Shown: positions 14,162-35,004 of the stretch, one piece after another
Position numbering within the stretch: position 1 is the first letter of the stretch
Layout: each line of letters opens with the position of its first letter
Assembly (NCBI GenBank): GCA_963725155.1
Contig: CAVRXU010000002.1
Location: forward strand, 492,506 to 556,505
From: an uncultured Microthrixaceae bacterium
GTDB lineage: Bacteria > Actinomycetota > Acidimicrobiia > Acidimicrobiales > DATDAH01
DNA length: 64,000 nt
Direction of reading: 5' to 3'
Made by a program: the position numbers and the translations under genes
Notes under the pieces: generated by a model
Seen by the model: the letters and a program-made list of their open reading frames with translations, nothing else
Databases searched by the model: none
Told to the model about the DNA's origin: nothing

Positions 14162-14213
14162 GTCCTCGGGACCTCGTCGGCCTTCCGATTCGGCGAACTG
14201 CGAGACTGCCGCC

Positions 14214-18047: not shown

Positions 18048-18151
18048 CGCCCCATGGTCCCAGAGCCGTCGGCCGCCGGCCACTGGTCGGCCGTGTCCGG
18101 AAAGACCACCGCGATACGGCGACCGCGGACAGTGGCGAGTATGGTTACTCC

Positions 18152-19817: not shown

Positions 19818-20657
19818 TCAGGATGAGCCCGGGTCGGTAGCTGCGGTCTCGCCGTCCACGCCCACCGATTCCAGGATCACCGTGTCGTCGTTGTGGCTGT
19901 GGGTGAAACCGAGTTCTCGCTCGATCTTCACCGTCTCCTCGGAGCGATAGGCGACGACGTAGGCCCGCCGGAACCCGGCGGTCTGGTTCCCGCCCGAGCC
20001 GTGCATGACCTTCTCGTTGTGCACCGTGCAGTCGCCCCGTTGGATCGGCTCGACGACGACGTCGTCGCCATCGCGCAGGTCGGTGCCCAAGGCGTGGGAT
20101 TCGCCTCGGCCCCCGAACACCGGCGCATGCGGGCGCAACGACGCCTCGTGATTGGTCGCGGGAACGAATCGCATGCAGCCGTTCTCGACGGTCGACTCGT
20201 CCACGGCGAGCCAGAAGGTGGCGGTCCGCCGGTCGGGAGTGTCCGGCCAGTACGCCATGTCCTGGTGCCAGGCGAACACGGCATCGTCCTTGAACGGCTG
20301 CTTGGCCAGGAGCTGGTCGTAGTCGATCGTCATCCCGTCACCGCAGAGCTGGCGGGCGATGTCGGCCGTCCTGCGCTCGTACACGTTCCCCTGCCACGCC
20401 GGAAAGTACCGGCGGGGGAGCAGCACGTTGATGATCGAGTAGTCCGACGGATCACGGCCGTAGTCGCCGGCCATGTCGCAGAAGTCCTTGCCCGGCACCT
20501 CGATCTCGCGTCGCAGGAACCGGTCGTAGTCGACTTCCAGCTCGGCGACCTCGGTGTCGGTCAGCACCCCGGAGAGGTGGACATAGCCGTCCTCCCCGAA
20601 GCGCCGGCGATCCTCGTCATCGACGTGGTAGGTGCCATCCCGCTCGAGCCGACCCAT
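19818..20657 (-). CDS. phytanoyl-CoA dioxygenase (PhyH) family Fe(II)/2-oxoglutarate oxygenase
   Basis: DAVFAWHQDMAYWP (H-x-D), VMHGSGGN (distal His), RRAYVVAYR. Confidence 0.8.
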   Translation of the reverse strand: MGRLERDGTYHVDDEDRRRFGEDGYVHLSGVLTDTEVAELEVDYDRFLRREIEVPGKDFCDMAGDYGRDPSDYSIINVLLPRRYFPAWQGNVYERRTADIARQLCGDGMTIDYDQLLAKQPFKDDAVFAWHQDMAYWPDTPDRRTATFWLAVDESTVENGCMRFVPATNHEASLRPHAPVFGGRGESHALGTDLRDGDDVVVEPIQRGDCTVHNEKVMHGSGGNQTAGFRRAYVVAYRSEETVKIERELGFTHSHNDDTVILESVGVDGETAATDPGSS

Positions 20658-20695
20658 GCCGCCTCCAGTGTGCTGGATTTGGCCTGACCCCGCGG

Positions 20696-22912
20696 CTACT
20701 CGACGAAGAGCGGGTTGCCCCGCCGTACCTCGTCGAGCAGGCCCTCCTGGACGATGTCCCGCATGAACCAGTCCGGCAGGAACCGGTCGGAGCGGAGAGC
20801 ATCCCGGACCTGTGTGCCCGACATCGTCATGAGGTCGGCCCGTTGCGACATCTCGTAGGCGTCGGTGTCGCGGTTGTAGCCGACCGCATCGAAGAACACG
20901 GGCTCCACGCCGATGTCGCCGAGGGAGTCGAAGAGCTGCCGGTTGGCTTCGGGGGCATAGAAGTCACCGACGCCGGTGTGGTCGCGTCCGATGATGAAGT
21001 GGCTGCAGCCCATGTTCTTGCGACACAGAGCCGTGAAGACCGCCTCGCGGGGCCCGGCGTAGCGCGAGTAGGTGAAGAAGCTCCCGAGCACGACCTTGCC
21101 GCTCGGGTAGCAACCGAACTCCAGGAGCCGCTGATAGCTGGCGAGTATCGGCTCGGCCAGGAAGTCGCCGCGCTTCTTCGCCCCGACCACGGGGTTGATG
21201 TAGATGCCGTCGGCCCCGGTCTGCTCCAAGGCCTGCTTCTGGATCCATTCGTGGCCGCGATGCGCGACGTTCCGAGTGTGGAACCCGACCACGCGTGACC
21301 AACCCAGCCGCGTGAAGATGAACCGGGTCTGGGCCGGCGTCAACAGGTAGTGGCGGATGGGGGAGTCCAACGGTCGGACGAGGGTCACGTCGCCGGCGAC
21401 GAACCTGTCGCCCTGCGTCATCAGGTTGATGACGCCGGGATGGTGGCGGCTGGTCGTGCCGAACATCCGCTGGGCGAGGGTCTCGAGGTCGTAGTCGTAG
21501 ATCTCCGACACGTCCACGTAGGCGTGGACGGTCCCCCGATGGTCGGTCAGAACGACGCGATCACCCGGTCCGAACGGCGTCGGCGTCGCCGGGTCCACGG
21601 GGAGGAGGAGCGGCAGCGTCCAGACGTCGCCGCTCGGCAGGCGATGGGTGTCCAGGACCGCGTCGAGTGTCTCACGGTCCATGAACCCGGTGAGCGGCGA
21701 GTAGGTCCCATAGCCGATCTGCTCGCAATCCATGAGATCTCGCTCGGAGACGACCAAGCGAGGCAGATCCTCGAGCGTCGCCAGGTCGTCGGGGCCGGCC
21801 TCGCGGTGCACCAGCCAGCCACCGTGTGGCTCCACGAGCATCGAGACGGCGTCGAGTGCGTACACGCCGTCGCCCGAGAAATCCGTGTGCTTGAAGCCGC
21901 GGATGATCTTGTTGATCATCGAGACACATTCGACGGGATAGTCGCCGATCGCCGTCTCCGCCGCGAGCACCAAGCCGTCGGCGCCATCGACCAGCGTGTT
22001 GTAGACGTCGTTGACCTCAGCCCGGGTGGGCGTGGAGACCGACACCATCGACTCGAGCAGGTTGGTGGCGACATAGACGTGACAGTCCACGGCCTTGGCC
22101 CGGCGGATGATGGACTTCTGCGTCTGGGGGATGATCTCCATGGGCACCTGGCGGGAGAGATCCCCGCGGTCGATCAGCAGCGCGTTCGAGGCCGCCGCGA
22201 TCTCTTCGAGGTTCTTCAGGCCACTGCGAGACTCGATCTTGGAGATGACGAACGCGTCCTCACCGACGATCTCGCGCATCTCTCGCACGTCTGCCCCGCA
22301 ACTGGCGAAGGAGAGGGCAAAGTGCGACAAGCCCGCCTCGCGCCCCCACTTCATCGACGCCCGGTCCTTGTCGGTCAGCGGGGGCATCGGGATGTCCCGC
22401 TCGACGGTCACGGCCTTGTTCTGTCCGACGAGGCCACCTTGGAGCACCCGCATGGAGACGCTGTCGTCGTCGATGGCGACCACCTGGACGAGAACCGAGT
22501 TGAAGTCGATGCTGATGAAGTCCCCCAGCTCGAGCAGCCCGATGATGTCCAAGGGGTAGAAGTTGAAGTTCTTGTCATCGGCGGCGACGCGTCGGCGGTG
22601 GGCGCGCACAACGGTGCTGTCGCGCAACGTGATGCTTCCGTGAACGAAGGTGCCGGTGCGGATCTGCGCCCCCTCGCTGTCGAGGCAGATGGGAGCGTCG
22701 GTTGCCTCACGGATCCTGCGAACCAGTCCGGGCAGGTCCCCGAACTCCGTGTGCGACAGGTTGATGCGAAACACCGAGGCACCGCTCTCCTCGAGGCGCT
22801 GGATGGTGTGCCGCTCGAGGGACGCCGGCCCCAACGTGCACAGGATGGACGGCATCGTGCCGTCGAGGGCATCGGTGTCCGCGGCCTGATGGGCAGGCGT
22901 GTCGTCGTTCAT
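20696..22912 (-). CDS. fusion protein: pyruvate kinase-like A/B domains (no C-terminal regulatory domain) + ATP sulfurylase (sulfate adenylyltransferase)
   Basis: Start trimmed to MNDDTPAHQ (ATG 22912), 20 nt after the sulfotransferase stop. PK motifs ILCTLGPAS, FRINLSHT, LDSEGAQIRTG, PLTDKD, ISKIES, LIDRGDLS, ATNLLESM, PTRAEVNDV..LVDGADGLVLAAETAIGDYP. Sulfurylase motifs VEPHGGWL, GFHTRNVAHRGHEW, HFIIGRDHTGVG. Confidence 0.85.
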   Translation of the reverse strand: MNDDTPAHQAADTDALDGTMPSILCTLGPASLERHTIQRLEESGASVFRINLSHTEFGDLPGLVRRIREATDAPICLDSEGAQIRTGTFVHGSITLRDSTVVRAHRRRVAADDKNFNFYPLDIIGLLELGDFISIDFNSVLVQVVAIDDDSVSMRVLQGGLVGQNKAVTVERDIPMPPLTDKDRASMKWGREAGLSHFALSFASCGADVREMREIVGEDAFVISKIESRSGLKNLEEIAAASNALLIDRGDLSRQVPMEIIPQTQKSIIRRAKAVDCHVYVATNLLESMVSVSTPTRAEVNDVYNTLVDGADGLVLAAETAIGDYPVECVSMINKIIRGFKHTDFSGDGVYALDAVSMLVEPHGGWLVHREAGPDDLATLEDLPRLVVSERDLMDCEQIGYGTYSPLTGFMDRETLDAVLDTHRLPSGDVWTLPLLLPVDPATPTPFGPGDRVVLTDHRGTVHAYVDVSEIYDYDLETLAQRMFGTTSRHHPGVINLMTQGDRFVAGDVTLVRPLDSPIRHYLLTPAQTRFIFTRLGWSRVVGFHTRNVAHRGHEWIQKQALEQTGADGIYINPVVGAKKRGDFLAEPILASYQRLLEFGCYPSGKVVLGSFFTYSRYAGPREAVFTALCRKNMGCSHFIIGRDHTGVGDFYAPEANRQLFDSLGDIGVEPVFFDAVGYNRDTDAYEMSQRADLMTMSGTQVRDALRSDRFLPDWFMRDIVQEGLLDEVRRGNPLFVE

Positions 22913-22932
22913 GGGGGTCCTGTTCTCTGAAG

Positions 22933-23844
22933 TCAACGGTCGGCCACGGCCGCCGCGAGGTCGGTCGGGATCTCGTAACCGTGACGCTGCATCTCCTCGC
23001 GGAGCTCCGGAACGGCGCGAGCCAGATCTTGGGGATCGAGACGCCGCCATTTCTCTGTCCGGTCCGCTTTGACGGTCTCCTTCGCGGCGTTCACCATGTC
23101 GGTGGTCATCTGCAGGTCGCAGTGCGCACAGATGCGTTCCAAGTCGGCGACCGGGTCGTGGACGAAGTCCTCGTAGCGCAGTCGAAGGACTTCGCCTTCG
23201 CCGAACGAGGCGAGGTCCTGCTCGGCCTTCTTCGAGCCTTCCGCCCACTGTCGGGCGATCACGGTGAACATGTCCTCCACCGCGAGGTCGTCCTGTAGGG
23301 CTCGGTAGCGCGGTCCCCATGCCGGCAGATACGTGCTCCTCCGGACTCGCTTGGCGAACTGTTGGCGCCCGTACTTGGCGGCCTGGTGGTGCAACTGGCT
23401 GATCGGCGTCTCTCGCAGTCGCCTGATCGCACCGGTCGTGGTGACGGGACGCTGCCACTTCAACTCGACGGAGCTGATGAAGGAGAAGGGGTCCCGGACC
23501 ATGTACATGAACGTGGCTTCCGGGAAGATCGCCCTGACGTAGGGGATCCTCAGGATGTTGTGCGGTGACTTCTCCAGGACGATGGAGCTCCCGTGGTCCT
23601 CCTGGTACTCGAGGAACCGACCCCGGATGTACCGCTTCACCTTGTCGGTTGCGTCCCGTTCGTCGAACTCGTCGTGGTGTCGGCCCGGATCGGCGTACAG
23701 CCAGAGGGAGTTCGGCTCATACCAGCCGACGACATCGGGATGCACGGAGACGATGTTCTGGACGATCGTCGTTCCGGACCGGAAGTTGCCGAGGAGGATG
23801 ATGGGCGGCCGCAGCTCGGCGGCCCGTCCCTTGCCGCGGCTCAC
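22933..23844 (-). CDS. sulfotransferase family protein (PAPS-dependent type)
   Basis: 5'-PSB loop ILLGNFRSGTTIV. 3'-PB region YMVRDPFSF. ATGA overlap with the upstream epimerase gene (23841-23844). Confidence 0.8.
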   Translation of the reverse strand: MSRGKGRAAELRPPIILLGNFRSGTTIVQNIVSVHPDVVGWYEPNSLWLYADPGRHHDEFDERDATDKVKRYIRGRFLEYQEDHGSSIVLEKSPHNILRIPYVRAIFPEATFMYMVRDPFSFISSVELKWQRPVTTTGAIRRLRETPISQLHHQAAKYGRQQFAKRVRRSTYLPAWGPRYRALQDDLAVEDMFTVIARQWAEGSKKAEQDLASFGEGEVLRLRYEDFVHDPVADLERICAHCDLQMTTDMVNAAKETVKADRTEKWRRLDPQDLARAVPELREEMQRHGYEIPTDLAAAVADR

Positions 23845-24836
23845 CGCAGCACCTGTCGGCGGTCGCGGTGCCAGGCCAGCTGGGCCTCGATCCCCTCGCG
23901 GAGCCCCACCCGTGGCTGCCAGCCGAGGAGCGTGTGGGCCCGTTCGGTCGCCCCGCCGTTGCGCTTGGCGTCGCCCGCCTCAGGGGGATAGTCCTCGACG
24001 ATGACCTGGGTCCCGGCGAGGTCGCCCACCGTTGCGATGAGGTCGTTGAGCGTGATCTCCCCACCGCCGGCGATGTTGACGATCGTCCCGGGCGGGACGT
24101 CGGCCTCCGAGGCCAGGATGTTCGCGGCGACGATGTCGGCGACGTAGGTGAACTCCCGGACCTGGGTCCCGTCGCCGAACCGAGGGAAGCTCGCTCCGGT
24201 GAGCACGGCTTCGCAGAGCCGGTGGATCGACATGTCCGGTCGCTGCCGCGGACCGTAGACGGTGAAGTAGCGCAAGGCCACGGTCGGCACACCCCAGTTC
24301 TCGGCGTACAGCGCAGTCAGGTGCTCCCCGGCGAGCTTGGTCACGCCGTAGGGGCTGTACGGACGGGGCACGTCCGTCTCCACCGTCGGGTAGCGGTCCT
24401 GGTTGCCGTAGACCGACGAGGACGAGGCGTAGACGACACGGCGCACCTCGGCTTCCTTCGCGGCCTCGAGCAGCCGCTGAGTCGCGAGCACGTTGTGGCT
24501 GGCGTACTCGGGGAAGCCGTCGGACCAGGACAGACGAACGCCCGGTTGCCCGGCCTGGTGGAACACGGTGTCACACCCGTCGAACAACGTGGCGAGATCC
24601 ACCTCGCGGAGGTCGGCCTCGACGAGGGTGAAGCGCTCGTCCGCGAGCGCGCCCTCGAGGTTCGAGCGTTTCACCTCTTCCGTGTAGTACGAGGTGAAGC
24701 AGTCGATCCCGACGACGGTGTCGCCCCGAGCGAGCAGCGTGTCGACGAGGTGCGATCCCACGAACCCTGCGGCCCCCGTGACGACGTGGCGGGTCGCCGC
24801 GGGTTCCGGCCGGTTGGACCTGTGTGACTCGGTCAT
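23841..24836 (-). CDS. NAD-dependent nucleotide-sugar epimerase/dehydratase (UDP-glucuronate decarboxylase / 4-epimerase type)
   Basis: VTGAAGFVGSHLVDTLL Rossmann motif, SSSSVYG, YSPYGVTKLAGE (YxxxK). Confidence 0.85.
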   Translation of the reverse strand: MTESHRSNRPEPAATRHVVTGAAGFVGSHLVDTLLARGDTVVGIDCFTSYYTEEVKRSNLEGALADERFTLVEADLREVDLATLFDGCDTVFHQAGQPGVRLSWSDGFPEYASHNVLATQRLLEAAKEAEVRRVVYASSSSVYGNQDRYPTVETDVPRPYSPYGVTKLAGEHLTALYAENWGVPTVALRYFTVYGPRQRPDMSIHRLCEAVLTGASFPRFGDGTQVREFTYVADIVAANILASEADVPPGTIVNIAGGGEITLNDLIATVGDLAGTQVIVEDYPPEAGDAKRNGGATERAHTLLGWQPRVGLREGIEAQLAWHRDRRQVLR

Positions 24837-24852
24837 CTTCCCCTCCCTCGCC

Positions 24853-27042: not shown

Positions 27043-27083
27043 TTTGGCGGTCCTTCCATTTCATGAGAGCTGTTGTGAGCGGC

Positions 27084-27102
27084 GACCGCCCTGAGGGCGG
27101 TC
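27084..27102 (-). other. GC-rich hairpin overlapping the Wzx stop codon (possible intra-operon attenuator/processing site)
   Basis: GACCGCCC-tga-GGGCGGTC, an 8-bp perfect stem, between 27101-28594 and 24853-27042. No U-tract. Confidence 0.3.
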
Positions 27103-28594
27103 ATGGCGTCGACCTGACCAGGCCGGCCATCACGGCGCGGGGTTGCTGTCGTGTGGTCGCAGGTGTCTGCATCACCGCCAGGGCGGCGATGACCAAGACG
27201 TACACCACCATCCCGACCGCGGCCGACACGAGGAGGCCGCTGCCGCGCATGGCGACGATAGCGGCGCCCATCGGCACCGTCGCCGCGGCGGGGAGGCTCA
27301 CGGCGGACAGGAGGGCGGAGCGCCCCGCGACCTGCCGGAGGAGCATGGCGTAGGCGACGAAGAGGCCGGACTCGCAGACGACCGTGGCGATGCCCGCACC
27401 GAGGTACGAGTACCTGGGGATGAGGGCGAGGTTCAGCACCACGTTGACCGCGGCGGCCGCCGCGACCGCGAACATCCGGTACCGCTGACGGTCGGCGGCC
27501 ACGAGAGACAGGCTCAGCGTGTTCCCGAGCATCCGCACGGGGATGACGAGGACGAGCAGCTGGTAGGTGACGACCGCGGGGGCGAACTTGGGCCCGTAGA
27601 GGAAGTCGATGGTCTCGGGGGCGAGCAGGAAGCTGCCCACTGCGGCCGGCACCGCGATGAGGGAGATCGTCCGGAACGAGGCATCGCGGAGTGTGCGGAA
27701 GGTCCGCACCTGGTTCGGCCACGCCCGACTCATCCGGGGGTACAGGGCGTGGTTGAGCGACCGGGCGAGGACGTTGAGGTTCAGCACGAGGTTCGTGCCG
27801 GCCTGGTAGAGCCCGACCGCCGTCGGTCCCTTGATGAAGCCGAGCAGGACCGAATCGACGCGCATGTAGGTGAGCGTGAGGGTGTCGTTCACCGCGAACG
27901 GTGTGCTCCGCCACAGCACGCTGCGGACGAACGCGGGCGTGCCCCGGGGGATCGGGAAGGCGCCGAGGTGGCCGGCGACGATCAGCCAGCCGATCCCCGC
28001 CCCCAGTGCCCGAGAGCCGCAGAAGGCGAGCAGCGCGCCGGTGACACCGCCCCCCGACCAGACGACGTACGCCACGCCGGCGAGGAAGGCGGTCTCCTGC
28101 ACCACCGTGACGACGGCCTCCAGACGCATCCGCTCCCAGGCCCAGAACGCCGCGAACTGGACCCGGGCCACGCCGTCGAAGGCCATGCCGATGCTGGCCA
28201 GTGACACCGCGACGGCGGTCTCGGGGGCGGCGCCGATGACTCGGGACCCCACGGCGAACAGCAGGGTGAAGCACGCGCCTGCGCCCAGGGCGATCAGCGT
28301 TCCGGCCTCGACCCATGTCCGGCCCTCCTCCGGCTTCCTCGCCACCTCGCGGGCGAGCAGGCTGGGGAGCCCGAAGTAGTAGGGCAGGAAGCTGGTGAGC
28401 ACCAGTGCGAACTGGAAGGTGCCGAGCCCCTCCGGACCGCCGGACCGGGCGAGGAGCACGACGCTCCCCAGGCCCGCGATCGCCCGGGCGGCAAAGGAGA
28501 CCATCTGCCAGACCGAATTGGCGGCCACCCGCCGCGCGCCGGACTCGCGGGCGGGCGGGGAGGCGACGGTGGGGTCAGGAGCCATGGGCGCCAT
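27101..28594 (-). CDS. polysaccharide flippase, Wzx/MOP superfamily
   Basis: 497 aa with about 12-14 hydrophobic segments. N-terminus RRVAANSVWQMVSFAARAIAGLGSVVLLAR is typical of Wzx-type polysaccharide biosynthesis proteins. 20-nt overlap with the upstream gene. Confidence 0.8.
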   Translation of the reverse strand: MAPMAPDPTVASPPARESGARRVAANSVWQMVSFAARAIAGLGSVVLLARSGGPEGLGTFQFALVLTSFLPYYFGLPSLLAREVARKPEEGRTWVEAGTLIALGAGACFTLLFAVGSRVIGAAPETAVAVSLASIGMAFDGVARVQFAAFWAWERMRLEAVVTVVQETAFLAGVAYVVWSGGGVTGALLAFCGSRALGAGIGWLIVAGHLGAFPIPRGTPAFVRSVLWRSTPFAVNDTLTLTYMRVDSVLLGFIKGPTAVGLYQAGTNLVLNLNVLARSLNHALYPRMSRAWPNQVRTFRTLRDASFRTISLIAVPAAVGSFLLAPETIDFLYGPKFAPAVVTYQLLVLVIPVRMLGNTLSLSLVAADRQRYRMFAVAAAAAVNVVLNLALIPRYSYLGAGIATVVCESGLFVAYAMLLRQVAGRSALLSAVSLPAAATVPMGAAIVAMRGSGLLVSAAVGMVVYVLVIAALAVMQTPATTRQQPRAVMAGLVRSTP

Positions 28595-29822
28595 GCGGTA
28601 CGAGATCCCGCGAGGTCTGGGCAGTGTCCGGGAGCCCCGGCTCGTGCTCCCGCGTGAGGTACAGGGCCGCGACCACGGCGAGGAGGGTCCAGAAGTGCCG
28701 GTAGTGCAGCGCCTCGTGGGTCAGCGCGGTGAGCGCGATCCCCGCCGCCGCCCCCGCCAGGGCAGCGGGGTTGGGTACGACCGCCGCCCAGTCGGGTGAC
28801 AATCGCTGGGCGCCCATGACCCGCACGCCCGCCGCCCCGGCGAGGACGATCAGCGCGAAGATCCCGAGCGGCCCACGCTCGACGAGCGTGCCGAGGTAGT
28901 CGTTGTGCGCCTCCTTCGCGGGGCGGGTCGACGTGTCGGCCAGGCTGAAACGAGTCGCCGACGGACCGACACCGACGACGTTGCTCCGTTGATACAGCTC
29001 GTAGGACGACGCGAACAGGGACTCGCGCCCCTCTGCGCTCCGGGAGCTGCGGGCGACCGAATAGCGGAAGATGGGGTTGTCGGTCTTCTGCAGTGAGGCC
29101 ACCGTCGCCTGGCCCACCGTTGACCAGAGCACACCGCCGGCCAGGACGAGGCAGAGGGTGACGGCGATGGCGGGGATCGAGCCACTTCGGCCGTAGACCC
29201 GCAGGAAGACGATGACCAGGGCGCCGACCGGCAGGCACAGCAACGCCGTGTTCGACCCGGTCAGGAGAATGGCGATGACGAGTGTGACGACCGCCAGGGT
29301 TCGGAGCACCGGTTGCCTGGGGTGCCGGGCCGCGAGGATGACGAAGATGGAGATCACGAAGTAGTTGCCGGCCAGGTTGGGGTGATCGAACCAGAGGCGG
29401 GCCCGGTCCCCGTACCCGCCGACGCCTCCGGGCACCCGGATCTGGCCGGTGGACACGGTCACGATGAGGACGACGCCCCAGGCGATCGCACTCAGGCACC
29501 AGACACGGAGGAGGAACCCCAGCCGCTCCGGCGTCTTGCAGAGGCTCGTGATCGCCGCGCACCAGGCCAGGAGGAAGGCCTCCTGTATGACCGCACCGCC
29601 GCCGCGGGCCGGCGCCGTCCCGAGCAGGGCGGCGACCAACCCGGCCACGCCGAGCACCCCGAGCGGAACGGCGTAGGGAACGTGGAGTTGGGCCCTGGTG
29701 GTGCCGGCCCAGAGCAAGGTCAAGAGGATCCCCGCGCCGAGGAAGAGGTCGACGGGTCCCGTGTTCATGGGCCCCTTGGGGTTCAGCAGAGGAAGCATGA
29801 CGATGCCCATGCCGATCGCCAC
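28575..29822 (-). CDS. O-antigen ligase/polymerase family membrane protein (Wzy-like)
   Basis: Polytopic, with a large loop carrying PAKEAHNDYLGTLVERGPLG (Wzy_C-type H-N-x-Y/L...E-x-G motif). Confidence 0.75.
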   Translation of the reverse strand: MAIGMGIVMLPLLNPKGPMNTGPVDLFLGAGILLTLLWAGTTRAQLHVPYAVPLGVLGVAGLVAALLGTAPARGGGAVIQEAFLLAWCAAITSLCKTPERLGFLLRVWCLSAIAWGVVLIVTVSTGQIRVPGGVGGYGDRARLWFDHPNLAGNYFVISIFVILAARHPRQPVLRTLAVVTLVIAILLTGSNTALLCLPVGALVIVFLRVYGRSGSIPAIAVTLCLVLAGGVLWSTVGQATVASLQKTDNPIFRYSVARSSRSAEGRESLFASSYELYQRSNVVGVGPSATRFSLADTSTRPAKEAHNDYLGTLVERGPLGIFALIVLAGAAGVRVMGAQRLSPDWAAVVPNPAALAGAAAGIALTALTHEALHYRHFWTLLAVVAALYLTREHEPGLPDTAQTSRDLVPHGAHGS

Positions 29823-29887
29823 GAGGGGAAGTCGATCCGGCCGAGGTTGGTGGAGGACAACCCCGCCGGGCGTCGGTACCGCGGCTC

Positions 29888-31213
29888 TCAGGACTCCACC
29901 TCAGGGCCCGAGGGCGCCCACGTCCCTGGCGTTGCCGCCGATTGGGCGGTGTGTCGGCGTCCGACCTTCGAGCCCAGGCCCGTCCGGAAGCGGGTCCAGA
30001 GCGCTCGGAGGTCGTCGCGGACGTGGTAGTGGGTCCACAGCGGGCCGGGATAGGCGATGATGCCCACGAGCGGCCACTGGGTGATGGCGAGCAGGTGCTC
30101 CAACCCACTGAGCGCGTCGCGTTGCAGCACCTCGGGAGCGACGACGACGAGGCCGTGACGAGCACGGTTCGAGCGCGGCCCGGGACGGGGTGCGTCCGGT
30201 CGTTCGGACCCGACCAGCTCGACGGCCACGTGAGGGACCGCGGTGCGAAGCCGTCCGGCCAGACCGTCGAGATCGACATCGGGGCCGACACGGGTGAGGT
30301 GGACGACGTCGAGGCGGGCGCTGCTGGCGGCCAGCCCGAGCTGAAGGCTCACGAGGTCGTCGTCGGAGTCGGCGAGTTCGGCGGAGCGACTCGACGGGTT
30401 CGGGATGCGGCCCAGGAGCGGCGCGCCGAGGACGTGGGCGAGGGCATCGCCGCTCACGATCGAGGGCCGAAGCGCTTCGATGACCGCGGCCAGGGCCACA
30501 CCCAGGATCAGCCCGAGCAGGCCGGCGACCGCCAGGTCAGCCGCCAGCCCGGATGACTCCGGGTGGCTCGGCGGCGTCGCCTGGTCGAGGAGTCGGGGAC
30601 TCGGTGTGGCATCGAGGGTCTGGCTCAGGGTGTCGCGCTGGCTCTGGATGTCGCTCTGACGACTGAGCGCCACGTCGAGCTGAAAGCGGAGCTGGTCGAT
30701 GTCTGCCCCTGGTTCCCCCGTGGCCTCGGTGATCCTGTCGATCTCCGCGTTGACGAGCTCCAGCCCGCTTTCGAGTTCAGCCAGGCGATCCTCCATCGGA
30801 CCGATGAGCAGGTCGTGACGGGAGGACACCAGCTGCTGGGCCATGCCGTTGGCCAGCGCACTGGCGACATCGGGGTCGCCGTCGGTCACCGACACGACGA
30901 GCACGCCGGAGCCCCCGACCGACTCGACATCGATCTCATCGACGACGCGGGTGGGGTCACGGTCGATTCGCTCCCTCTGGAGAGCGGCCTCGATCTCGGT
31001 CTGGCTGGTGACGATGGCCTTCGCCGTGTCGACCATCGCCTCTGACTCCTCCGCGGTGGTCGCGTCGGTGCCGAAGTAGGCACGAGCGGACGCCACGTAG
31101 GAGGCGTCGCCTTGCGCGCCCAGGAGGAACGGGAGCGACAGGAAGACGACGACCATGGCGAGGATCAGTCGACCGTGACGCAGGATGCGTTGTACCGCTT
31201 CGGTCAGCTCCAC
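29888..31213 (-). CDS. Wzz-like chain-length determinant with degenerate (Walker-A-less) C-terminal domain
   Basis: GTG start at 31213. N-terminal TM LILAMVVVFLSLPFLL, a coiled-coil periplasmic region, second TM LAVAGLLGLILGVALAAVIEAL. No GxxxxGK(S/T) in the C-terminal cytoplasmic domain. Confidence 0.7.
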   Translation of the reverse strand: MELTEAVQRILRHGRLILAMVVVFLSLPFLLGAQGDASYVASARAYFGTDATTAEESEAMVDTAKAIVTSQTEIEAALQRERIDRDPTRVVDEIDVESVGGSGVLVVSVTDGDPDVASALANGMAQQLVSSRHDLLIGPMEDRLAELESGLELVNAEIDRITEATGEPGADIDQLRFQLDVALSRQSDIQSQRDTLSQTLDATPSPRLLDQATPPSHPESSGLAADLAVAGLLGLILGVALAAVIEALRPSIVSGDALAHVLGAPLLGRIPNPSSRSAELADSDDDLVSLQLGLAASSARLDVVHLTRVGPDVDLDGLAGRLRTAVPHVAVELVGSERPDAPRPGPRSNRARHGLVVVAPEVLQRDALSGLEHLLAITQWPLVGIIAYPGPLWTHYHVRDDLRALWTRFRTGLGSKVGRRHTAQSAATPGTWAPSGPEVES

Positions 31214-32055
31214 TGCGTTCTCCTCGTCATCTGGGGGTGGTGCGGCGCTCCGCCGCGATCAGGCTCGGGTCGCCGGTCGAGCCCGAGATCCGATCGTGGC
31301 GTTGCCAACTCCGACAACACGCCCTTCAGATCGGTTGCGTCACCCGTGTAGTCGTCCGTGCGGCCGTGGAGCAGGTGCAATGATGCCACCAACGCCGCGG
31401 GATCGATGGGGCGGTCGCCGTTGACGATGCGTCGCACGGTCGTCGCCACGCGGTCACCGAACTGCGCCGTCCACGAGGCGAGCATCGCCTCGACCAACTT
31501 GGCCTGTCGCTCGAGCTCGCGACGGCGACCCGCACCGGCGGCCTCCACCCGGCTCTCCCGCCCGGGTCGGGCGGCGAGACGCAGGTCGGCGAGCCCGAGG
31601 TCGGATTCGACCACGACGATCAGGTCCGGCGCCAGCAGCGCGACCCCGGGATCGGCGATGTCGATGACCGACGCCGCGTCGCCGGCGAACCCGAGCGAGC
31701 AGAGCTCCTGCACCAGGCCCTGGTCGAAGACGTGGAAGCCGGGTGTGGTGCTCGCCCGTCGCATCGCGGCCCGGAGCACGAGCCAGTTGAGCGACCGGAT
31801 GGCGACATCACGCCGCGTCGGCTGGTGGGAGCGCCTGACGGCCTGAACCGTCCGCGCCGAAGCCTGGGGGTGGCCGGCGATCTCCGCCGCGGCCCGCCGG
31901 AGCTTGCGGCGCAGTCGATCCCCGCGCGATCGGCGCGGGGAGACCTCCTCGAGCGGCAGCGAGGCCGCATGGCCCCGGCGGCGCAGCTCGGCGACGAGCG
32001 CATGAGCGACGGTCGACTTGCCCGAGCCGGGCACGCCGCAGAGTTCGATGATCAC
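31204..32055 (-). CDS. stand-alone P-loop NTPase / nucleotide-kinase-like protein
   Basis: GTG start overlaps the upstream stop (GTGA at 32052-32055). Walker A CGVPGSGKSTVAHAL, then HVFDQG and PDLIVVVESD (kinase-fold-like order). The upstream part of the 436-aa track ORF is read-through. Confidence 0.65.
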   Translation of the reverse strand: MIIELCGVPGSGKSTVAHALVAELRRRGHAASLPLEEVSPRRSRGDRLRRKLRRAAAEIAGHPQASARTVQAVRRSHQPTRRDVAIRSLNWLVLRAAMRRASTTPGFHVFDQGLVQELCSLGFAGDAASVIDIADPGVALLAPDLIVVVESDLGLADLRLAARPGRESRVEAAGAGRRRELERQAKLVEAMLASWTAQFGDRVATTVRRIVNGDRPIDPAALVASLHLLHGRTDDYTGDATDLKGVLSELATPRSDLGLDRRPEPDRGGAPHHPQMTRRTQWS

Positions 32056-34010
32056 GTCGGGCCGTGGGTGGGTTCGAGGAGTCGTTCGGCCATGGCGGCC
32101 CGAGCCTCGACGAAGACGGTGTCGAAGGGCTGGTTGGCGTCCATCTCCACCACACCGAGCTCGGCCCGCTCGAACAGCAGGCCCTCGACCACCTGCTTGC
32201 GGGTGACGAGTGACTGGGGGTCGTGCCCGGGGCGGCGACGAGCCGCAGTCTCCTCGTCGACGTTCAGGCGGATGACGAGGTCGGGCTGGAACGCGTGGGC
32301 CTGCTCGTACGGCTTCCGCTCCCACCTCGCCAGCCCCTGCCGCCACCGACTGTCCGACGACAACCACGCATCGAGCAGCGGCCCGTCGATGATGCCCGGC
32401 ACCTGGGCCTGTGGGTAGCGGTCGCACAGCACGAGAGCGCCATTGCGCGCCGCTCGACGAGCCTGACGGAGCTTCGACCGCTTCTCCTGGGCGAGGGCCA
32501 GCGCCCACACCCACCGTGAGGTCTCCAGGGCGCGCGGAGCCCGCTCCTGGACGGCTTTCCGACGGGCTTCCGTGCCCTTGGCGCCGAACACCGCTCGCTT
32601 GACGTACGCCAGCGGCCGCCGTAGCAGGGACGACGGACCGTCGCCGCTGCCGAGGTAGAGGTGAACCACCTCCTGGTCTTCAGCGAAGCTCTCGGCGAGG
32701 GCACGGCTCAGCGTCGACTTCCCGGAGCCGTCGGACCCGACCACCGCCACGACGCGGCCCGTGACCCGGCGCTCGCTCTGCTTCACCGCGAGGACCGAGT
32801 TCACGAGATCCCGGTAGCCCTCCCGCACCCGAGTCGGACTCCACGACGACAAGTCGATCGTGGGCCCGCTTCGTTCGACGGGCCACCGAAGGTACGGCAG
32901 CGCCGCACGGGCGGCCCCGACGACGTCGCCCACGTCGACGACCTTTCCCGGGGCGCCGAGCTCGAGCAGCTCGTCGGCACCGTCGACATCGGTGGCGATG
33001 AACGGGGTTCCCGCGGCCGCGGCCTGGACCAGCACCTGCGGCAGGCCCTCTGCCCGACTCATGAGCACGACGACATCAGACGCGACGAACAGGTCGCGGG
33101 GATCGTCGACGTGGCCCAGCAACTGGCAGTCACCGTCGAGGCCGATCTGGCGGACCAGGGAACGGAGCCGGGCCTCCTCTGGCCCGGCACCGGCCACCAC
33201 CAAGAAGGGCGAAGGGCCGGCGCTGAGCTGGATCATCTGCTGCAGCAGGATCGGGAGGTCGAGGACGCGCTTGCGCTCCTCCAGGCTCCCGACATACAGG
33301 ATCCACGGTCGATCTTCGGGCAGCGCGTGGGTGTGGGCCATGGCCCGTCGTATCTCGGGCCGGTCCGCCTCGGCGGCCGGCAGCCGGGCGGCGGAACGGA
33401 TGACGGTCAACTTCTCCGCCGGGACCCCGATGTGGGCGAATCGGCTGGCGAGGTCGGTGCCCACGACCGCGTAGGCAGCCGTCCATCGCGAAAGGGCCCA
33501 TTCGAGGGTGCGAAAGAGTCGGCTCTCGTAGGTGCTGTACCCGGGGCCGAAGTCCGCCATCGACAACGAGTGGACGACGGGAGGGGCCCCCGCGATGCTC
33601 GCCGCCAGCCGACCGAGGACACCGGACTTGGACTGGTGGGTGACCACGAGCGCATAGTCAGAGTCTTTGATGGTCTGGCGCAGGCGCGAGAGGGCGATGG
33701 CGTCTTGCCACGGACTCACGGGCCGCCGCAGGCTCGGTTCCAGGGTCACCCGGGCGCCGGCGAGCTGATGGCTGGCGAGGTCGATGTCCGAGTCACGACC
33801 GATGATCACGTGGTGCTGGTGCTCCGGGAGGGCGGCCACCATGTCGCGCAGGCGCCGCTCGGAGCCGCCCTGGTCGAACCGGGTGCACACGTGGAGGATC
33901 CGCCTGGGCAGGCGAGCGACCCCGTTGGGGCCCGCCGTCACGGAAGCGGTGAAGTTGTGTTCTGCTGTCACGGGAGCGGCGCCGTTGCGTTCGGGTCTGA
34001 CCCCGTTCAC
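32052..34010 (-). CDS. fusion: GT4-family glycosyltransferase + C-terminal thymidylate-kinase-like P-loop domain
   Basis: GTG start in a GTGA overlap with the sugar transferase stop (34007-34010). GT4 features RILHVCTRFDQGGSER, ILYVGSLEERKRV, MSRAEGLPQVLVQAAAAGTPFIATDVDG. Then VVAVVGSDGSGKSTLSRAL (about 32717-32750), LVLCDRYP, PDLVIRLNVDEE. Confidence 0.8.
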   Translation of the reverse strand: MNGVRPERNGAAPVTAEHNFTASVTAGPNGVARLPRRILHVCTRFDQGGSERRLRDMVAALPEHQHHVIIGRDSDIDLASHQLAGARVTLEPSLRRPVSPWQDAIALSRLRQTIKDSDYALVVTHQSKSGVLGRLAASIAGAPPVVHSLSMADFGPGYSTYESRLFRTLEWALSRWTAAYAVVGTDLASRFAHIGVPAEKLTVIRSAARLPAAEADRPEIRRAMAHTHALPEDRPWILYVGSLEERKRVLDLPILLQQMIQLSAGPSPFLVVAGAGPEEARLRSLVRQIGLDGDCQLLGHVDDPRDLFVASDVVVLMSRAEGLPQVLVQAAAAGTPFIATDVDGADELLELGAPGKVVDVGDVVGAARAALPYLRWPVERSGPTIDLSSWSPTRVREGYRDLVNSVLAVKQSERRVTGRVVAVVGSDGSGKSTLSRALAESFAEDQEVVHLYLGSGDGPSSLLRRPLAYVKRAVFGAKGTEARRKAVQERAPRALETSRWVWALALAQEKRSKLRQARRAARNGALVLCDRYPQAQVPGIIDGPLLDAWLSSDSRWRQGLARWERKPYEQAHAFQPDLVIRLNVDEETAARRRPGHDPQSLVTRKQVVEGLLFERAELGVVEMDANQPFDTVFVEARAAMAERLLEPTHGPT

Positions 34011-34798
34011 CGTGATTCGCCGGGCTCGGGCCGCAGGACGCACCGGACGGTTCGGCGCAGGATGTCGACGTCCCCGACGAGCGAGCGGTTGAGCGCATAC
34101 TCGACGTCGAGGCGGACGCGTTCCTCGTAGGGGATCGCGTTGCGGCCGTTCACCTGCCAGGCGCCGGTCATGCCCGGTCGCACCTGGAGCACGACTTGGG
34201 CACAACTGCCGTATCGCCCGAGTTCCTCGGGGACGACGGGCCGCGGGCCCACCAGGCTCATGTCACCCCGCAGGACGTTGATCAGCTGGGGCAGCTCGTC
34301 CAGGCTCGTCCGGCGAAGAACGCGGCCGACGCGGGTGATCCGCGGGTCGGACTGGAGCTTGAAGTCCTTCTCGAACGCGGCGCGCGCCTCCGGGTCCTCG
34401 AGGAGGATGACCGCGAGCCGCTCCTCGGCGTCGGTCCGCATCGTCCTGAACTTCATGCACTCGAATGGCTCGCCGTGCCTGCCGATGCGGGTCTGGCGGA
34501 AGATCGCCGGCCCTCGGGACGTGAGGGCCACCGCGGCCGCCACCACCAACATCAAGGGTGCGGTCAGGATGGTGATCAGACTCGCGACGACGAGGTCGAA
34601 CGTGCGCTGGGCCGCGTCGGCTCGAAGGCACCGTCCCCGGGCCCGCTCGACCATCCGGGCCTCGAAGGCCAACCTCCCGGACTCGACCTGCGGGCGGGCC
34701 AGCGCGCGCAACAGCGCAGCCGGTGTGACCGCCGAACCCGGACCCGCGGCCGGCTGGACGGTGGCCGACGTGTCGGCCAACTCAGTGGTAACCGCCAT
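34007..34798 (-). CDS. polyprenyl-phosphate sugar phosphotransferase (bacterial sugar transferase, WbaP/EpsL-type initiating enzyme)
   Basis: Start trimmed to MAVTTELADTS (ATG 34798, SD GAGGGAGAGGGG). TM FDLVVASLITILTAPLMLVVAAAVAL. Motifs KFRTM and SLDELPQLINVLRGDMSLVGPRP. Confidence 0.9.
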   Translation of the reverse strand: MAVTTELADTSATVQPAAGPGSAVTPAALLRALARPQVESGRLAFEARMVERARGRCLRADAAQRTFDLVVASLITILTAPLMLVVAAAVALTSRGPAIFRQTRIGRHGEPFECMKFRTMRTDAEERLAVILLEDPEARAAFEKDFKLQSDPRITRVGRVLRRTSLDELPQLINVLRGDMSLVGPRPVVPEELGRYGSCAQVVLQVRPGMTGAWQVNGRNAIPYEERVRLDVEYALNRSLVGDVDILRRTVRCVLRPEPGESR

Positions 34799-35004
34799 CG
34801 GAAGTGCCCCTCTCCCTCGGAACCCCGTCGGTTCCAGTTGTTCGCCGCCTCGACAAGGACCACGCTTCGGGTCCAGCAGCACCACTCTGCGTGGTGCACT
34901 CTGGAGCATAGAACCTTGTTTCCCTGTGCGCAAAGAGTGGCAGTCGGGGGTGACCAGGCGCCATAGGGAGACGTCTGAGTAGCTGGTAGGGAAAATGCTG
35001 AGAC
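34799..35004 (-). promoter_or_regulatory. conserved promoter/5' leader, copy B (candidate cis-regulatory RNA of the glycan operon)
   Basis: Reverse complement aligns with 10480-10684. Shared blocks: TCAGCATTTTCCCTA, ACTCAG..GTCT.CCTATGGC, GCGCACAG.GAA..CAAGG.TCTAT.CTCC, hairpin CACCAC-GCAGA-GTGGTG, CTGGACCC...TGGTCCTT, GGAACCGACGGGGTTCC, then the SD. Confidence 0.6.

What the first reader, a model, noticed from the sequence alone, without database searches (positions are those of the whole stretch)
19818..34798. Eleven-gene, translationally coupled Wzx/Wzy glycan operon with built-in sulfate activation and sulfotransferase (candidate sulfated exopolysaccharide pathway)
All genes lie on the minus strand with gaps of at most about 65 nt. 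Order: initiating sugar-phosphate transferase, then the GT4/P-loop fusion (GTGA overlap 34007-34010), then a P-loop protein (GTGA overlap 32052-32055). Next come a Wzz-like protein (10-nt overlap), a Wzy-like protein and Wzx (20-nt overlap). These are followed by a secreted PKD/DNRLRE protein, an NAD epimerase/dehydratase and a sulfotransferase (ATGA overlap 23841-23844). The operon ends with the pyruvate-kinase-like/ATP-sulfurylase fusion and a PhyH dioxygenase. Only one glycosyltransferase besides the primer is present. The repeat unit would therefore be very short, with decoration (sulfation, oxidation) supplying the chemistry. Sulfate-modified surface glycans are characterised in rhizobia and cyanobacteria. 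I do not know of a characterised Wzy-type sulfated polymer locus of this composition in high-GC Gram-positives.
Basis: partly seen in the sequence, partly recalled or inferred. Interest (0 to 1): 0.72.

Follow-up and report, generated by a model that had tools for sequence, protein, structure and literature searches.

The report
Sulfated-polysaccharide operon with PK–sulfurylase fusion
This is a real eleven-gene operon from an uncultured soil actinobacterium that most likely builds a sulfated, acidic surface or secreted polysaccharide. Its sulfate-activating enzyme is an uncharacterised fusion of a pyruvate-kinase domain to ATP sulfurylase, and that fusion travels next to the same sulfotransferase gene in several bacterial phyla.

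Summary
Three corrections apply. The 23841-23844 overlap is GTGA, not ATGA. The 'Wzz-like' call is weak. Both P-loop proteins are thymidylate/nucleoside-kinase-like, not APS kinases.

The sulfotransferase and the PK–ATP-sulfurylase fusion form an adjacent pair that is 56-94% identical across phyla. The pair sits inside Wzx/Wzy polysaccharide clusters in Acidimicrobiia, Anaerolineae, Caldilineaceae and Rhodopirellula. In Calditrichaceae and KSB1 it sits beside GT4 and sugar-transferase genes. The epimerase is closest to UDP-glucuronate 4-epimerases, so the polymer is probably a short-repeat, uronic-acid-containing, sulfated glycan.

The locus is larger than reported. It also includes a LuxR-type regulator, a nucleotidyltransferase-like gene and paralogous secreted proteins.

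'Built-in sulfate activation' is only half true, because no APS kinase was found here or in any related locus examined.

Sulfated Wzx/Wzy clusters are already known or predicted (synechan; Actinoplanes wps-1). The cluster is therefore a new variant of a known kind. The unexplored part is the fusion family, with at least 67 representatives at 50% identity and no paper found.

The parts
34007..34798 (-). Initiating polyprenyl-phosphate sugar-1-phosphate transferase. It is a small, single-TM Bac_transf protein of 263 aa.
   Evidence: PF02397 at 221.6 bits. It is closest to the WbaP/RfbP galactose-1-P transferase models but below their cut-offs. ATG 34798 is preceded by GGGAGAGGGG.
32052..34010 (-). 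GT4 glycosyltransferase (residues ~36-375) fused to a thymidylate-kinase-like P-loop domain (residues ~410-650).
   Evidence: Glycos_transf_1 at 84.4 bits and Glyco_trans_4_4 at 61.3 bits. The P-loop domain carries GSDGSGKST, DRYPQ and PDLVIRLNVD motifs, and its profile matches PDB thymidylate kinases at E 7e-10.
31204..32055 (-). Stand-alone P-loop kinase-like protein of 283 aa with unknown substrate.
   Evidence: Only P-loop-level family hits. The AF2 model has pLDDT 83, and its nearest folds are TMPK, deoxynucleoside kinase and adenylate kinase. The search returned only 31 clusters; those placed on a taxon-labelled contig lie in Acidimicrobiia loci.
29888..31213 (-). Polysaccharide co-polymerase-like protein. 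It has two TM segments and a ~200-aa ectodomain. Its C-terminal cytoplasmic domain has no Walker A motif.
   Evidence: No Pfam hit. Weak hits to TIGR03017, TIGR03007 and TIGR01006 (35 bits or less). TM-like windows start at residues 10 and 220. It aligns collinearly but weakly with the Wzz/AAA_31 protein of L015.
28575..29822 (-). Wzy-type polymerase.
   Evidence: PF04932 Wzy_C at 62.3 bits against a cut-off of 31.7. Multi-TM.
27101..28594 (-). Wzx (MOP-family) flippase.
   Evidence: PF01943 at 89.2 bits and PF13440 at 57.2 bits. At least 10 TM-like windows.
24853..27042 (-). Secreted protein made of a signal peptide, a ~270-aa beta-propeller-like domain, three PKD domains and a CBM96/DNRLRE domain.
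   Evidence: PKD_4 at 128.6 bits and CBM96 at 91.6 bits. DNRLRE at 57.5 bits. The N-terminal domain gives a weak Phytase-like hit (22.8 bits, below cut-off). A tandem repeat of 3 x 261 bp lies at 25318-26091.
23841..24836 (-). NAD-dependent SDR epimerase, most like UDP-glucuronate 4-epimerases.
   Evidence: PF01370 at 188.8 bits. The best solved relatives are the 6zl6 series and MoeE5 6kv9 (E 5e-70 and 2e-66).
22933..23844 (-). Cytoplasmic sulfotransferase with PAPS-type motifs (Sulfotransfer_3).
   Evidence: PF13469 at 95.5 bits. The 5'-PSB motif (R22-S23-G24-T-T) and the 3'-PB motif (R117...S125) are invariant across ten orthologues from several phyla.
20696..22912 (-). Fusion protein of 738 aa: a pyruvate-kinase A/B barrel domain without the C-terminal domain, followed by PUA_2 and ATP sulfurylase.
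   Evidence: PK at 221.2, PUA_2 at 130.1 and ATP-sulfurylase at 212.8 bits. PK catalytic motifs and sulfurylase motifs are conserved in a 119-sequence family alignment. Aligned to solved PKs and sulfurylases.
19818..20657 (-). PhyH-family Fe(II)/2-oxoglutarate dioxygenase. Probably accessory.
   Evidence: PF05721 at 104.4 bits. It follows the fusion gene only in the closest relatives L001 and L009 (78% identity), not in L002 or L003.
35094..35771 (-). NarL/LuxR-type response regulator on the same strand, 295 nt upstream of the operon. Probably the regulator.
   Evidence: Response_reg at 73.8 bits and GerE at 65.9 bits. It is conserved upstream of the sugar transferase in L021, where a HisKA_3 kinase accompanies it, and in L022.
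35965..37077 (+). NTP_transf_5-like protein, transcribed divergently. A conserved companion of the locus.
   Evidence: Weak PF14907 hit (22.8 bits, below cut-off). It is 70% identical and adjacent in L021. Homologues lie next to the TMPK-like P-loop in L004, L005, L010 and L011, and are fused to it in L015 and L018.
18041..19753 (+). Convergent paralogue of the N-terminal beta-propeller-like domain of the PKD/CBM96 protein. Secreted or membrane-anchored.
   Evidence: The translations share the domain. The same convergent arrangement occurs in L001 and L009, and two paralogues occur in L002 and L003.
34799..35007 (-). 5' leader and promoter region of the operon. It is duplicated, together with the first ~33 codons, upstream of the CBM_4_9 gene at 10477-10784.
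   Evidence: blastn gives 315 bp at 77% identity in inverted orientation. The element is conserved in the relative L028.

Best explanation
The locus encodes a Wzx/Wzy-dependent pathway for a short-repeat, acidic, O-sulfated extracellular or capsular polysaccharide in an Acidimicrobiales-type actinobacterium.

Inferred sequence of steps:
1. The small Bac_transf enzyme primes polyprenyl phosphate with a hexose- or HexNAc-1-phosphate.
2. The epimerase supplies UDP-galacturonate from UDP-glucuronate.
3. The single GT4 adds the second sugar.
4. The cytoplasmic Sulfotransfer_3 enzyme sulfates the lipid-linked unit, using PAPS.
5. Wzx flips the unit, Wzy polymerises it, and the PCP-like protein sets chain length.
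6. The secreted beta-propeller/PKD/CBM96 proteins bind or trim the anionic polymer.
7. A LuxR-type response regulator controls the operon. A CBM_4_9 gene that carries a copy of the same leader is probably under the same control.

Sulfate is activated by a dedicated ATP sulfurylase fused to a catalytically intact pyruvate-kinase domain. The most likely role of that domain is to make ATP from ADP and PEP at the sulfurylase. This would pull the unfavourable APS-forming reaction and recycle the ADP released by APS kinase. The APS-to-PAPS step is not encoded by any recognisable gene in the locus.

Shown here: gene content, order, domain identities, motif conservation and cross-phylum synteny. Inferred: substrates, the sulfation step itself, co-transcription and the role of the PK domain.
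For: - Domain calls are all above Pfam cut-offs.
- Genes overlap or are tightly spaced, with no opposing gene inside the operon.
- Gene order is the same in relatives: L022 (~98% DNA identity), L002 and L003 (Microthrixaceae, 64-83% protein identity) and L021.
- The sulfotransferase and PK–sulfurylase genes are adjacent inside clusters carrying Bac_transf, Wzy_C, Wzz/BY-kinase, GT4, CBM96 and Wzx genes in Anaerolineae (L015), Caldilineaceae (L018) and Rhodopirellula (L017). They lie beside GT4 and sugar-transferase genes in Calditrichaceae (L004) and KSB1 (L011).
- The sulfotransferase keeps invariant 5'-PSB and 3'-PB motifs.
- The sulfurylase HxxH, RN and GRD motifs and the PK R/N/S/H, K-I-E, RGD and T motifs are conserved family-wide.
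- The epimerase is closest to solved UDP-GlcA 4-epimerases.
- The founding CBM96 member binds the polyanion alginate (PMC9971899).
- A published study states that PAPS-synthesis genes together with sulfotransferase genes in a polysaccharide cluster are a hallmark of sulfated polysaccharide synthesis (PMC11641403).
Against: - No sulfated polymer, transcript or enzyme activity has been observed.
- No APS kinase is present in the window ORFs tested or in any related locus, although the sulfotransferase motifs imply PAPS.
- The sulfotransferase acceptor is unknown, and its closest solved relatives are protein-tyrosine sulfotransferases (E ~5e-6).
- The PCP assignment is weak.
- Wzy_C cannot be told apart from a ligase by sequence alone.
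- The roles of three conserved genes are unexplained: the two TMPK-like kinases and the NTP_transf_5-like protein.
- L021 has the cluster and the sulfotransferase but no PK–sulfurylase within 10 kb.
Confidence: 0.72

Rival explanations
1. The glycan is not a free exopolysaccharide. It is a sulfated cell-wall-linked glycopolymer, a glycolipid, or the glycan of a glycoprotein, assembled by the same Wzx/Wzy-type machinery with Wzy_C acting as a ligase.
For: Wzy_C (PF04932) is the O-antigen ligase/polymerase family and sequence cannot separate the two roles. The PCP is weakly supported and lacks a kinase domain. Secreted PKD/CBM96 proteins are co-conserved and could be carriers.
Against: A two-TM PCP-like protein lies next to Wzy in all Acidimicrobiia relatives. 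Other phyla have full Wzz plus BY-kinase genes in the equivalent clusters. No LCP-type ligase or oligosaccharyltransferase was detected in the window.
Confidence: 0.12
2. The sulfotransferase sulfates tyrosines of a protein, for example the co-encoded secreted PKD/CBM96 protein, in the manner of RaxST or TPST. The glycan genes would then be functionally separate.
For: The nearest solved structures are tyrosylprotein sulfotransferases (E 5e-6 over the PAPS-binding half). CBM96 proteins co-occur with the sulfotransferase and fusion pair in several phyla.
Against: The similarity is confined to the cofactor-binding region. NCBIfam's only hit is the Nod-factor sugar sulfotransferase NoeE. The pair is embedded between glycan genes, often with start/stop overlap to the epimerase. 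L017 has the pair with glycan genes but no CBM96 protein within 10 kb.
Confidence: 0.06
3. The PK–sulfurylase fusion serves general assimilatory sulfate activation and lies next to the glycan genes by chance. Alternatively, the PK domain is a housekeeping pyruvate kinase.
For: NCBI and JGI annotate relatives simply as 'pyruvate kinase' or 'sulfate adenylyltransferase'. No APS kinase is linked to it.
Against: The fusion is adjacent to the same sulfotransferase family in at least 12 loci from at least 5 phyla. No cysH, cysD or cysN gene or sulfate transporter was seen beside it. The domain lacks the PK C-terminal domain and scores below every PK and sulfurylase equivalog cut-off.
Confidence: 0.05

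Closest known systems
Synechan (xss) cluster of Synechocystis sp. PCC 6803 (PMC8205485)
   Same: It is a Wzx/Wzy/PCP polysaccharide cluster with sulfotransferase genes embedded. Sulfation is inferred to occur on the lipid-linked repeat unit in the cytoplasm.
   Different: xss has eight glycosyltransferases and two sulfotransferases for an eight-sugar repeat, uses XssQ/R/S regulators, and has no sulfate-activation gene in the cluster. The present locus has one GT4 plus the primer, one sulfotransferase, a PK–sulfurylase fusion, two TMPK-like kinases and a LuxR-type regulator, in a different phylum.
Actinoplanes missouriensis wps-1 cluster with the adjacent gene AMIS_7390 (PMC13390465)
   Same: It is an actinobacterial Wzx/Wzy/Wzz cluster with sulfotransferases, and a neighbouring sulfate adenylyltransferase/APS-kinase-family gene is required for the same phenotype. 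The sulfated polysaccharide is predicted, not demonstrated.
   Different: wps-1 has two sulfotransferases of other families, a GH26, a methyltransferase and a protein kinase. Its sulfate-activating gene is of the conventional adenylyltransferase/APS-kinase type, not a PK fusion. It belongs to a different class (Actinomycetes, not Acidimicrobiia).
Sulfated capsule cluster of Vibrio sp. KMM 8419, which carries extra cysN, cysD and cysC copies (PMC11641403)
   Same: Dedicated sulfate-activation genes and sulfotransferases sit inside a polysaccharide locus, and there the polymer was chemically shown to be sulfated.
   Different: It is ABC-transporter (Kps) dependent. Activation uses the GTPase-coupled CysDN plus CysC, giving the complete PAPS pathway. 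The present locus uses a Sat-type sulfurylase fused to PK and has no APS kinase.
Homo-oligomeric (Sat-type) ATP sulfurylases and bifunctional Sat/APS kinases (PDB 8a8d, 1v47, 2gks)
   Same: The PUA_2 plus ATP-sulfurylase domains align end to end (E 2.5e-81 to 8a8d), and the HxxH, RN and GRD motifs are present.
   Different: The extra domain is an N-terminal pyruvate-kinase barrel, not a C-terminal APS kinase. The QTRN motif reads HTRN, with the histidine invariant in the family. Scores are below the NCBIfam equivalog cut-offs.
Canonical pyruvate kinase (PDB 7oo1, 1pkn, 1pky)
   Same: The A/B barrel aligns over ~320 residues (E 5e-57). The R-x-N-x-S-H, D-S/T, K-I-E, R-G-D, A-T-N/Q-x-L-E-S and E-T-A motifs are retained.
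   Different: There is no C-terminal (PK_C) domain. The barrel is fused to sulfurylase, and the score is below the TIGR01064 cut-off (262.5 against 306.4).

Membership tests
Wzx/Wzy-dependent polysaccharide assembly locus | Initiating polyprenyl-phosphate sugar-phosphate transferase | tested here: met
   PF02397 at 221.6 bits against a cut-off of 27.
Wzx/Wzy-dependent polysaccharide assembly locus | MOP-family flippase (Wzx) | tested here: met
   PF01943 at 89.2 bits against a cut-off of 28.2. At least 10 hydrophobic segments.
Wzx/Wzy-dependent polysaccharide assembly locus | Wzy polymerase | tested here: met
   PF04932 at 62.3 bits against a cut-off of 31.7. Polymerase and ligase roles cannot be separated by sequence.
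Wzx/Wzy-dependent polysaccharide assembly locus | Polysaccharide co-polymerase (Wzz/PCP) | tested here: inconclusive
   No Pfam Wzz hit. NCBIfam chain-length-determinant models score 35 bits or less against cut-offs above 278. Two-TM topology and a weak collinear alignment to a Wzz/AAA_31 protein.
PAPS-dependent sulfotransferase (Sulfotransfer_3) | Family profile score above the curated cut-off | tested here: met
   PF13469 at 95.5 bits against a cut-off of 27.
PAPS-dependent sulfotransferase (Sulfotransfer_3) | 5'-phosphosulfate-binding loop and 3'-phosphate-binding R...S motif | tested here: met
   RSGTT (residues 22-26) and VRDPFSFISS (R117, S121, S125) are invariant in 10 orthologues and align to the same motifs of TPST.
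PAPS-dependent sulfotransferase (Sulfotransfer_3) | Carbohydrate acceptor | not testable with these tools
   Only genomic context speaks for a glycan acceptor.
ATP sulfurylase (Sat type) | PUA_2 plus ATP-sulfurylase domains with HxxH, RN and GRD motifs | tested here: met
   130.1 and 212.8 bits. HRGH, TRN and GRDHTG are present and conserved. The Q of the QTRN motif is replaced by an invariant H.
ATP sulfurylase (Sat type) | Reaches the NCBIfam curated cut-off | tested here: not met
   NF003166 (subfamily model) at 350.8 against 387. TIGR00339 (equivalog_domain model) at 296.3 against 322.95.
Pyruvate kinase | Catalytic barrel with conserved Lys, Glu, Asp and Thr and cation/PEP ligands | tested here: met
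   PF00224 at 221.2 bits. The motifs are conserved in 119 family members.
Pyruvate kinase | C-terminal alpha/beta (PK_C) domain and equivalog score | tested here: not met
   No PK_C hit; the barrel is followed directly by PUA_2. TIGR01064 at 262.5 against 306.4.
APS kinase (CysC), tested for the two P-loop proteins | APS_kinase profile above cut-off, or an APS-kinase-like fold | tested here: not met
   PF01583 at 17.1 against 21.1, over the P-loop only. Profiles match TMPK (E 7e-10) and dNK/TMPK, while APS kinase matches weakly (E 6e-4 to 0.016) and only over the P-loop. The AF2 model's top 50 fold matches are TMPK, dNK and AK.
UDP-glucuronate 4-epimerase | Closest characterised relatives are UDP-GlcA 4-epimerases | tested here: inconclusive
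   The best PDB hits are the 6zl6 series and MoeE5 6kv9 (E 5e-70 and 2e-66), ahead of GalE and WbpP types. That these entries are UDP-GlcA 4-epimerases is from my own knowledge. No NCBIfam equivalog was reached.
Synechan-type (xss) sulfated EPS system | XssS/XssR/XssQ regulatory set | tested here: not met
   Only a NarL/LuxR-type response regulator is adjacent. A STAND NTPase with an adenylate-cyclase domain lies about 14 kb beyond the far end of the operon (2289-5705) and is not linked.

The most novel reading that the evidence does not exclude
The pyruvate-kinase domain makes this a new class of sulfate-activating enzyme. Phosphoenolpyruvate hydrolysis would be coupled directly to APS formation, and perhaps to PAPS formation. 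This would be a third solution to the thermodynamic problem of sulfate activation, alongside GTP hydrolysis by CysN and pulling by APS kinase and pyrophosphatase. The two-gene cassette (sulfotransferase plus fusion) would then be the horizontally spread genetic basis of the chemically detected but genetically unassigned sulfated exopolymers of soils, sludges and mats. In the strongest form, the module needs no canonical APS kinase: either the PK domain or a TMPK-like kinase supplies the 3'-phosphate.
Probability: 0.25. Interest if true: 0.8.

Novelty: new variant of a known kind. Interest (0 to 1): 0.6.

Why it matters
Sulfated exopolymers are detected chemically in granular sludge, microbial mats and some isolates. 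One study states that the bacterial pathways are 'not well known' and that reference sulfotransferases give few hits (PMC10483923). Another paper still describes sulfated polysaccharides as essentially cyanobacterial (PMC13390465).

The conserved pair of a Sulfotransfer_3 gene and a PK–ATP-sulfurylase gene sits inside polysaccharide clusters of Microthrixaceae/Acidimicrobiia, Anaerolineae, Caldilineaceae and Planctomycetota, and beside glycan genes in Calditrichota and KSB1. It offers a concrete, searchable marker and a testable enzyme set for non-cyanobacterial sulfated glycans.

The fusion itself is a large family for which I found no paper. It could reveal a PEP-driven way of activating sulfate. 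That would be of interest for sulfur biochemistry and for PAPS regeneration in the biotechnological production of sulfated glycans.

Tried and rejected
- **P-loop proteins as the missing APS kinase.** Rejected as family members. Both are TMPK/dNK-like by profile and fold. The GT4-fused type also occurs in Acetobacter and Sphingomonas, next to a flippase-like gene and without any sulfation genes.
- **Regulatory RNA.** Rfam gave no hit in the whole window at gathering thresholds, and none at E ≤ 1 in the leader.
- **Structured leader or anti-SD helix.** RNAalifold pairs an invariant UUUUCCC with the RBS, but there is no covariation. The single-sequence fold is no better than shuffles (z = -0.30). 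Not supported.
- **17-mer hairpin search of genome contigs.** It returned 70 loci, almost all chance matches. Only L028 (the orthologous CBM_4_9 leader) extended.
- **Promoter and terminator scans.** No promoter-like site and one plus-strand terminator-like site. Uninformative at 70% GC.
- **Encoding-contig look-up with the window's own fusion protein.** It returned only a 2.3-kb contig without DNA.
- **Literature searches for a PK–sulfurylase fusion.** Only papers using PK in coupled assays turned up.
- **Second structure prediction.** Not used. Coordinates cannot be inspected with these tools, so a model of the fusion would not have tested domain coupling.
- **Region 42.1-44.3 kb.** The two long plus-strand ORFs tested gave no Pfam hit.

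Full report
**Observation**

The window is about 70% G+C. Between 19818 and 34798 there are eleven consecutive minus-strand genes. I fixed start codons from upstream ribosome-binding sequences and domain boundaries and checked the junctions base by base.
- The fifth, at 23841-23844, is GTGA rather than ATGA.
- The remaining gaps are 65, 58, 16, 20 and 38 nt.

The only weak call is 'Wzz-like'. That protein has no Pfam hit, only sub-threshold chain-length-determinant hits, a two-TM topology, and a C-terminal domain without a Walker A motif.

**Source and synteny**

A 361-kb ENA contig (L022) is about 98% identical in DNA to the window. The closest named relatives are Acidimicrobiales and Microthrixaceae MAGs.
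- L002 and L003 keep the order GT4-P-loop, P-loop, PCP, Wzy, Wzx, PKD/CBM96, epimerase, sulfotransferase, fusion, at 64-83% protein identity.
- L021, a more distant Acidimicrobiia genome, keeps a histidine kinase, the response regulator, the sugar transferase, GT4-P-loop, P-loop, epimerase, PCP, Wzy and Wzx. The sulfotransferase, an NTP_transf_5-like gene and CBM96 giant proteins lie alongside.

It includes the LuxR-type response regulator (35094-35771), the divergent NTP_transf_5-like gene (35965-37077) and the convergent paralogue of the beta-propeller-like domain (18041-19753). PhyH is conserved only in the nearest relatives.

**The sulfation module**

The sulfotransferase and the PK–sulfurylase fusion are adjacent in at least twelve loci.
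- Taxa: Acidimicrobiia, Calditrichaceae, KSB1, Planctomycetota (Planctomycetaceae, Rhodopirellula), Anaerolineae and Caldilineaceae.
- Conservation: the two proteins are far better conserved than their neighbours. Against the Anaerolineae locus the sulfotransferase is 65% and the fusion 73% identical. The sugar transferase (41%), epimerase (38%) and GT4 (27%) are much lower.
- Composition: in the window these genes have lower G+C and GC3 than the flanks. This fits a horizontally mobile cassette.
- Context: where Pfam-annotated context is available, the pair sits among Bac_transf, Wzz/BY-kinase, Wzy_C, Wzx, GT4, CBM96, methyltransferase, acetyltransferase and deacetylase genes.
- Exception: in two alphaproteobacterial MAGs the fusion lies beside a Sulfatase-family gene, among aminotransferase, cytidylyltransferase, epimerase and carbamoyltransferase genes typical of nonulosonic-acid glycans.

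I found no locus that suggested a small-molecule pathway.

**The sulfotransferase**

Ten orthologues share 61-76% identity. They have an invariant RSGTT loop and an invariant R117...S125 motif. These align with the 5'-phosphosulfate and 3'-phosphate binding motifs of tyrosylprotein sulfotransferases, the nearest solved relatives. This points to PAPS as the donor. It also leaves protein sulfation as a minor rival. NCBIfam's only hit is the Nod-factor sugar sulfotransferase NoeE.

**The fusion protein**

Residues ~22-340 align with the A/B barrel of canonical pyruvate kinases. Residues ~358-738 align with Sat-type ATP sulfurylases.
- In a 119-member family alignment the PK catalytic motifs (FRINLSH, LDSEG..IRTG, SKIES, DRGDLS, ATNLLESM, AETA) are conserved. 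So are the sulfurylase motifs (H.RN..HRGHE, GRDHTG).
- Two differences stand out. There is no PK C-terminal domain. The sulfurylase QTRN motif reads H-x-R-N with an invariant histidine.
- The family is large. All 120 best 90%-identity clusters carry the three domains. An exhaustive search of 50%-identity representatives lists at least 67 full-length fusions, down to about 33% identity.
- Sources name them only 'pyruvate kinase' or 'ATP sulfurylase'. Full-text searches found no paper on the fusion.

My inference is that the PK domain supplies or regenerates ATP from PEP at the sulfurylase. This fits the intact PK active site but is untested.

**The missing step**

No APS kinase was found in the window ORFs examined or in any annotated related locus.
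- The 283-aa P-loop protein models confidently (pLDDT 83). Its nearest folds are thymidylate, deoxynucleoside and adenylate kinases.
- The P-loop domain fused to GT4 has the GxDGxGKS, DRY and LID signature of thymidylate kinases. Its profile matches them at E 7e-10, against 0.016 for APS kinase.
- Its stand-alone homologues in Acetobacter and Sphingomonas sit next to a flippase-like gene with no sulfation genes.
- In Chloroflexota the same domain is fused to the NTP_transf_5-like protein (L015 13662-15155; L018). GT4, the TMPK-like kinase and the nucleotidyltransferase-like protein therefore form a functionally linked trio. What it does remains unexplained.

PAPS formation must depend on a gene elsewhere or on an unrecognised activity.

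**What the polymer may be**

The epimerase is closest to solved UDP-glucuronate 4-epimerases (the 6zl6 series and MoeE5; the identities of those entries are from my own knowledge). With one primer transferase and one GT4, the simplest product is a sulfated disaccharide repeat containing galacturonate, a glycosaminoglycan-like polyanion. The founding CBM96 module binds alginate (PMC9971899). The co-conserved secreted CBM96 proteins therefore plausibly bind or process the anionic product. Their N-terminal domain is weakly Phytase-like, a beta-propeller family.

**Comparison with known systems and verdict**

Several precedents exist:
- Sulfotransferases embedded in a Wzx/Wzy cluster are established for synechan (PMC8205485).
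- A sulfated capsule locus with its own cysNDC genes is described for a Vibrio (PMC11641403).
- A Wzx/Wzy cluster with sulfotransferases and an adjacent adenylyltransferase/APS-kinase gene was genetically studied in Actinoplanes in 2026, with sulfation still unverified (PMC13390465).

The locus is therefore a new variant of a known kind. It is not categorically new.

What is new is the sulfate-activating fusion, its tight cross-phylum partnership with one sulfotransferase family, the absence of an APS kinase, and the TMPK-like/NTP_transf_5 companions. Chemically detected sulfated exopolymers of sludges and mats still lack assigned genes (PMC10483923, PMC9723792). The cassette is a useful, testable lead for that problem. 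I score interest at 0.6.

Noticed in passing
window 34699-35007 (-) and 10477-10784 (+): A ~315-bp inverted duplication at 77% identity. It covers the upstream leader, the RBS and the first ~33 codons of the sugar-transferase gene, and the same parts of a secreted CBM_4_9/DUF5122 protein gene (10682-13477). This suggests a shared promoter or operator. Conserved blocks include TCAGCATTTTCCC and a GGAACCGACGGGGTTCC hairpin just before the RBS. There is no covariation or fold-energy support for a riboswitch.
   Followed up: partly
window 25318-26091: Three tandem 261-bp units (97% matches) encode the PKD domains. The ~98%-identical contig L022 has only two copies, so repeat number varies between near-identical strains or assemblies.
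   Followed up: partly
window 45360-46604 (-), with 46622-47857 (+) and 47858-48610 (+): A second, larger Sulfotransfer_3 protein (138 bits) lies beside a cytochrome P450 and an SDR, which looks like a small-molecule context. A 43%-identical homologue lies ~5 kb beyond the cluster in the Microthrixaceae locus L003.
   Followed up: no
L015 13662-15155, L018 14151-15755, L019 7135-9466, L020 7292-8666: The TMPK-like P-loop domain is fused to an NTP_transf_5-like domain in Chloroflexota. In Acetobacter and Sphingomonas it occurs as tandem paralogues next to a MOP-flippase-like gene. This is a conserved, unexplained kinase/nucleotidyltransferase/flippase association, independent of sulfation.
   Followed up: partly
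L008 12183-13802 (-) and L014 12157-13887 (+): In two alphaproteobacterial MAGs the PK–sulfurylase gene lies next to a Sulfatase-family (PF00884) gene, not a Sulfotransfer_3 gene, among nonulosonic-acid-type sugar genes.
   Followed up: no
window 8541-10505 (-): A 654-aa protein with three neocarzinostatin-family (PF00960) repeats. It is conserved at 84% in the relative L028.
   Followed up: no
window 2289-5705 (+): An 1138-aa protein combining an adenylate/guanylate cyclase domain with an NB-ARC/STAND NTPase and TPR repeats.
   Followed up: no
window 14154-16403 (+): A 749-aa cytoplasmic protein with no Pfam or NCBIfam hit. Motifs such as YWTDNGAAYWY and LDSWFY look glycoside-hydrolase-like by eye. 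It follows a methyltransferase gene at 13478-14161.
   Followed up: no
L022 10843-12167 and 4961-6069: In the near-identical contig the PCP-like and NTP_transf_5-like genes are split by frameshifts, probably long-read assembly errors. The window has intact reading frames.
   Followed up: no
window 54445-55494, 57432-58541, 59808-60737, 1-672 (all -): Four Abhydrolase_3 esterase/lipase paralogues are interleaved with Peripla_BP_6 binding proteins and luciferase-like monooxygenases at the far end of the window.
   Followed up: no
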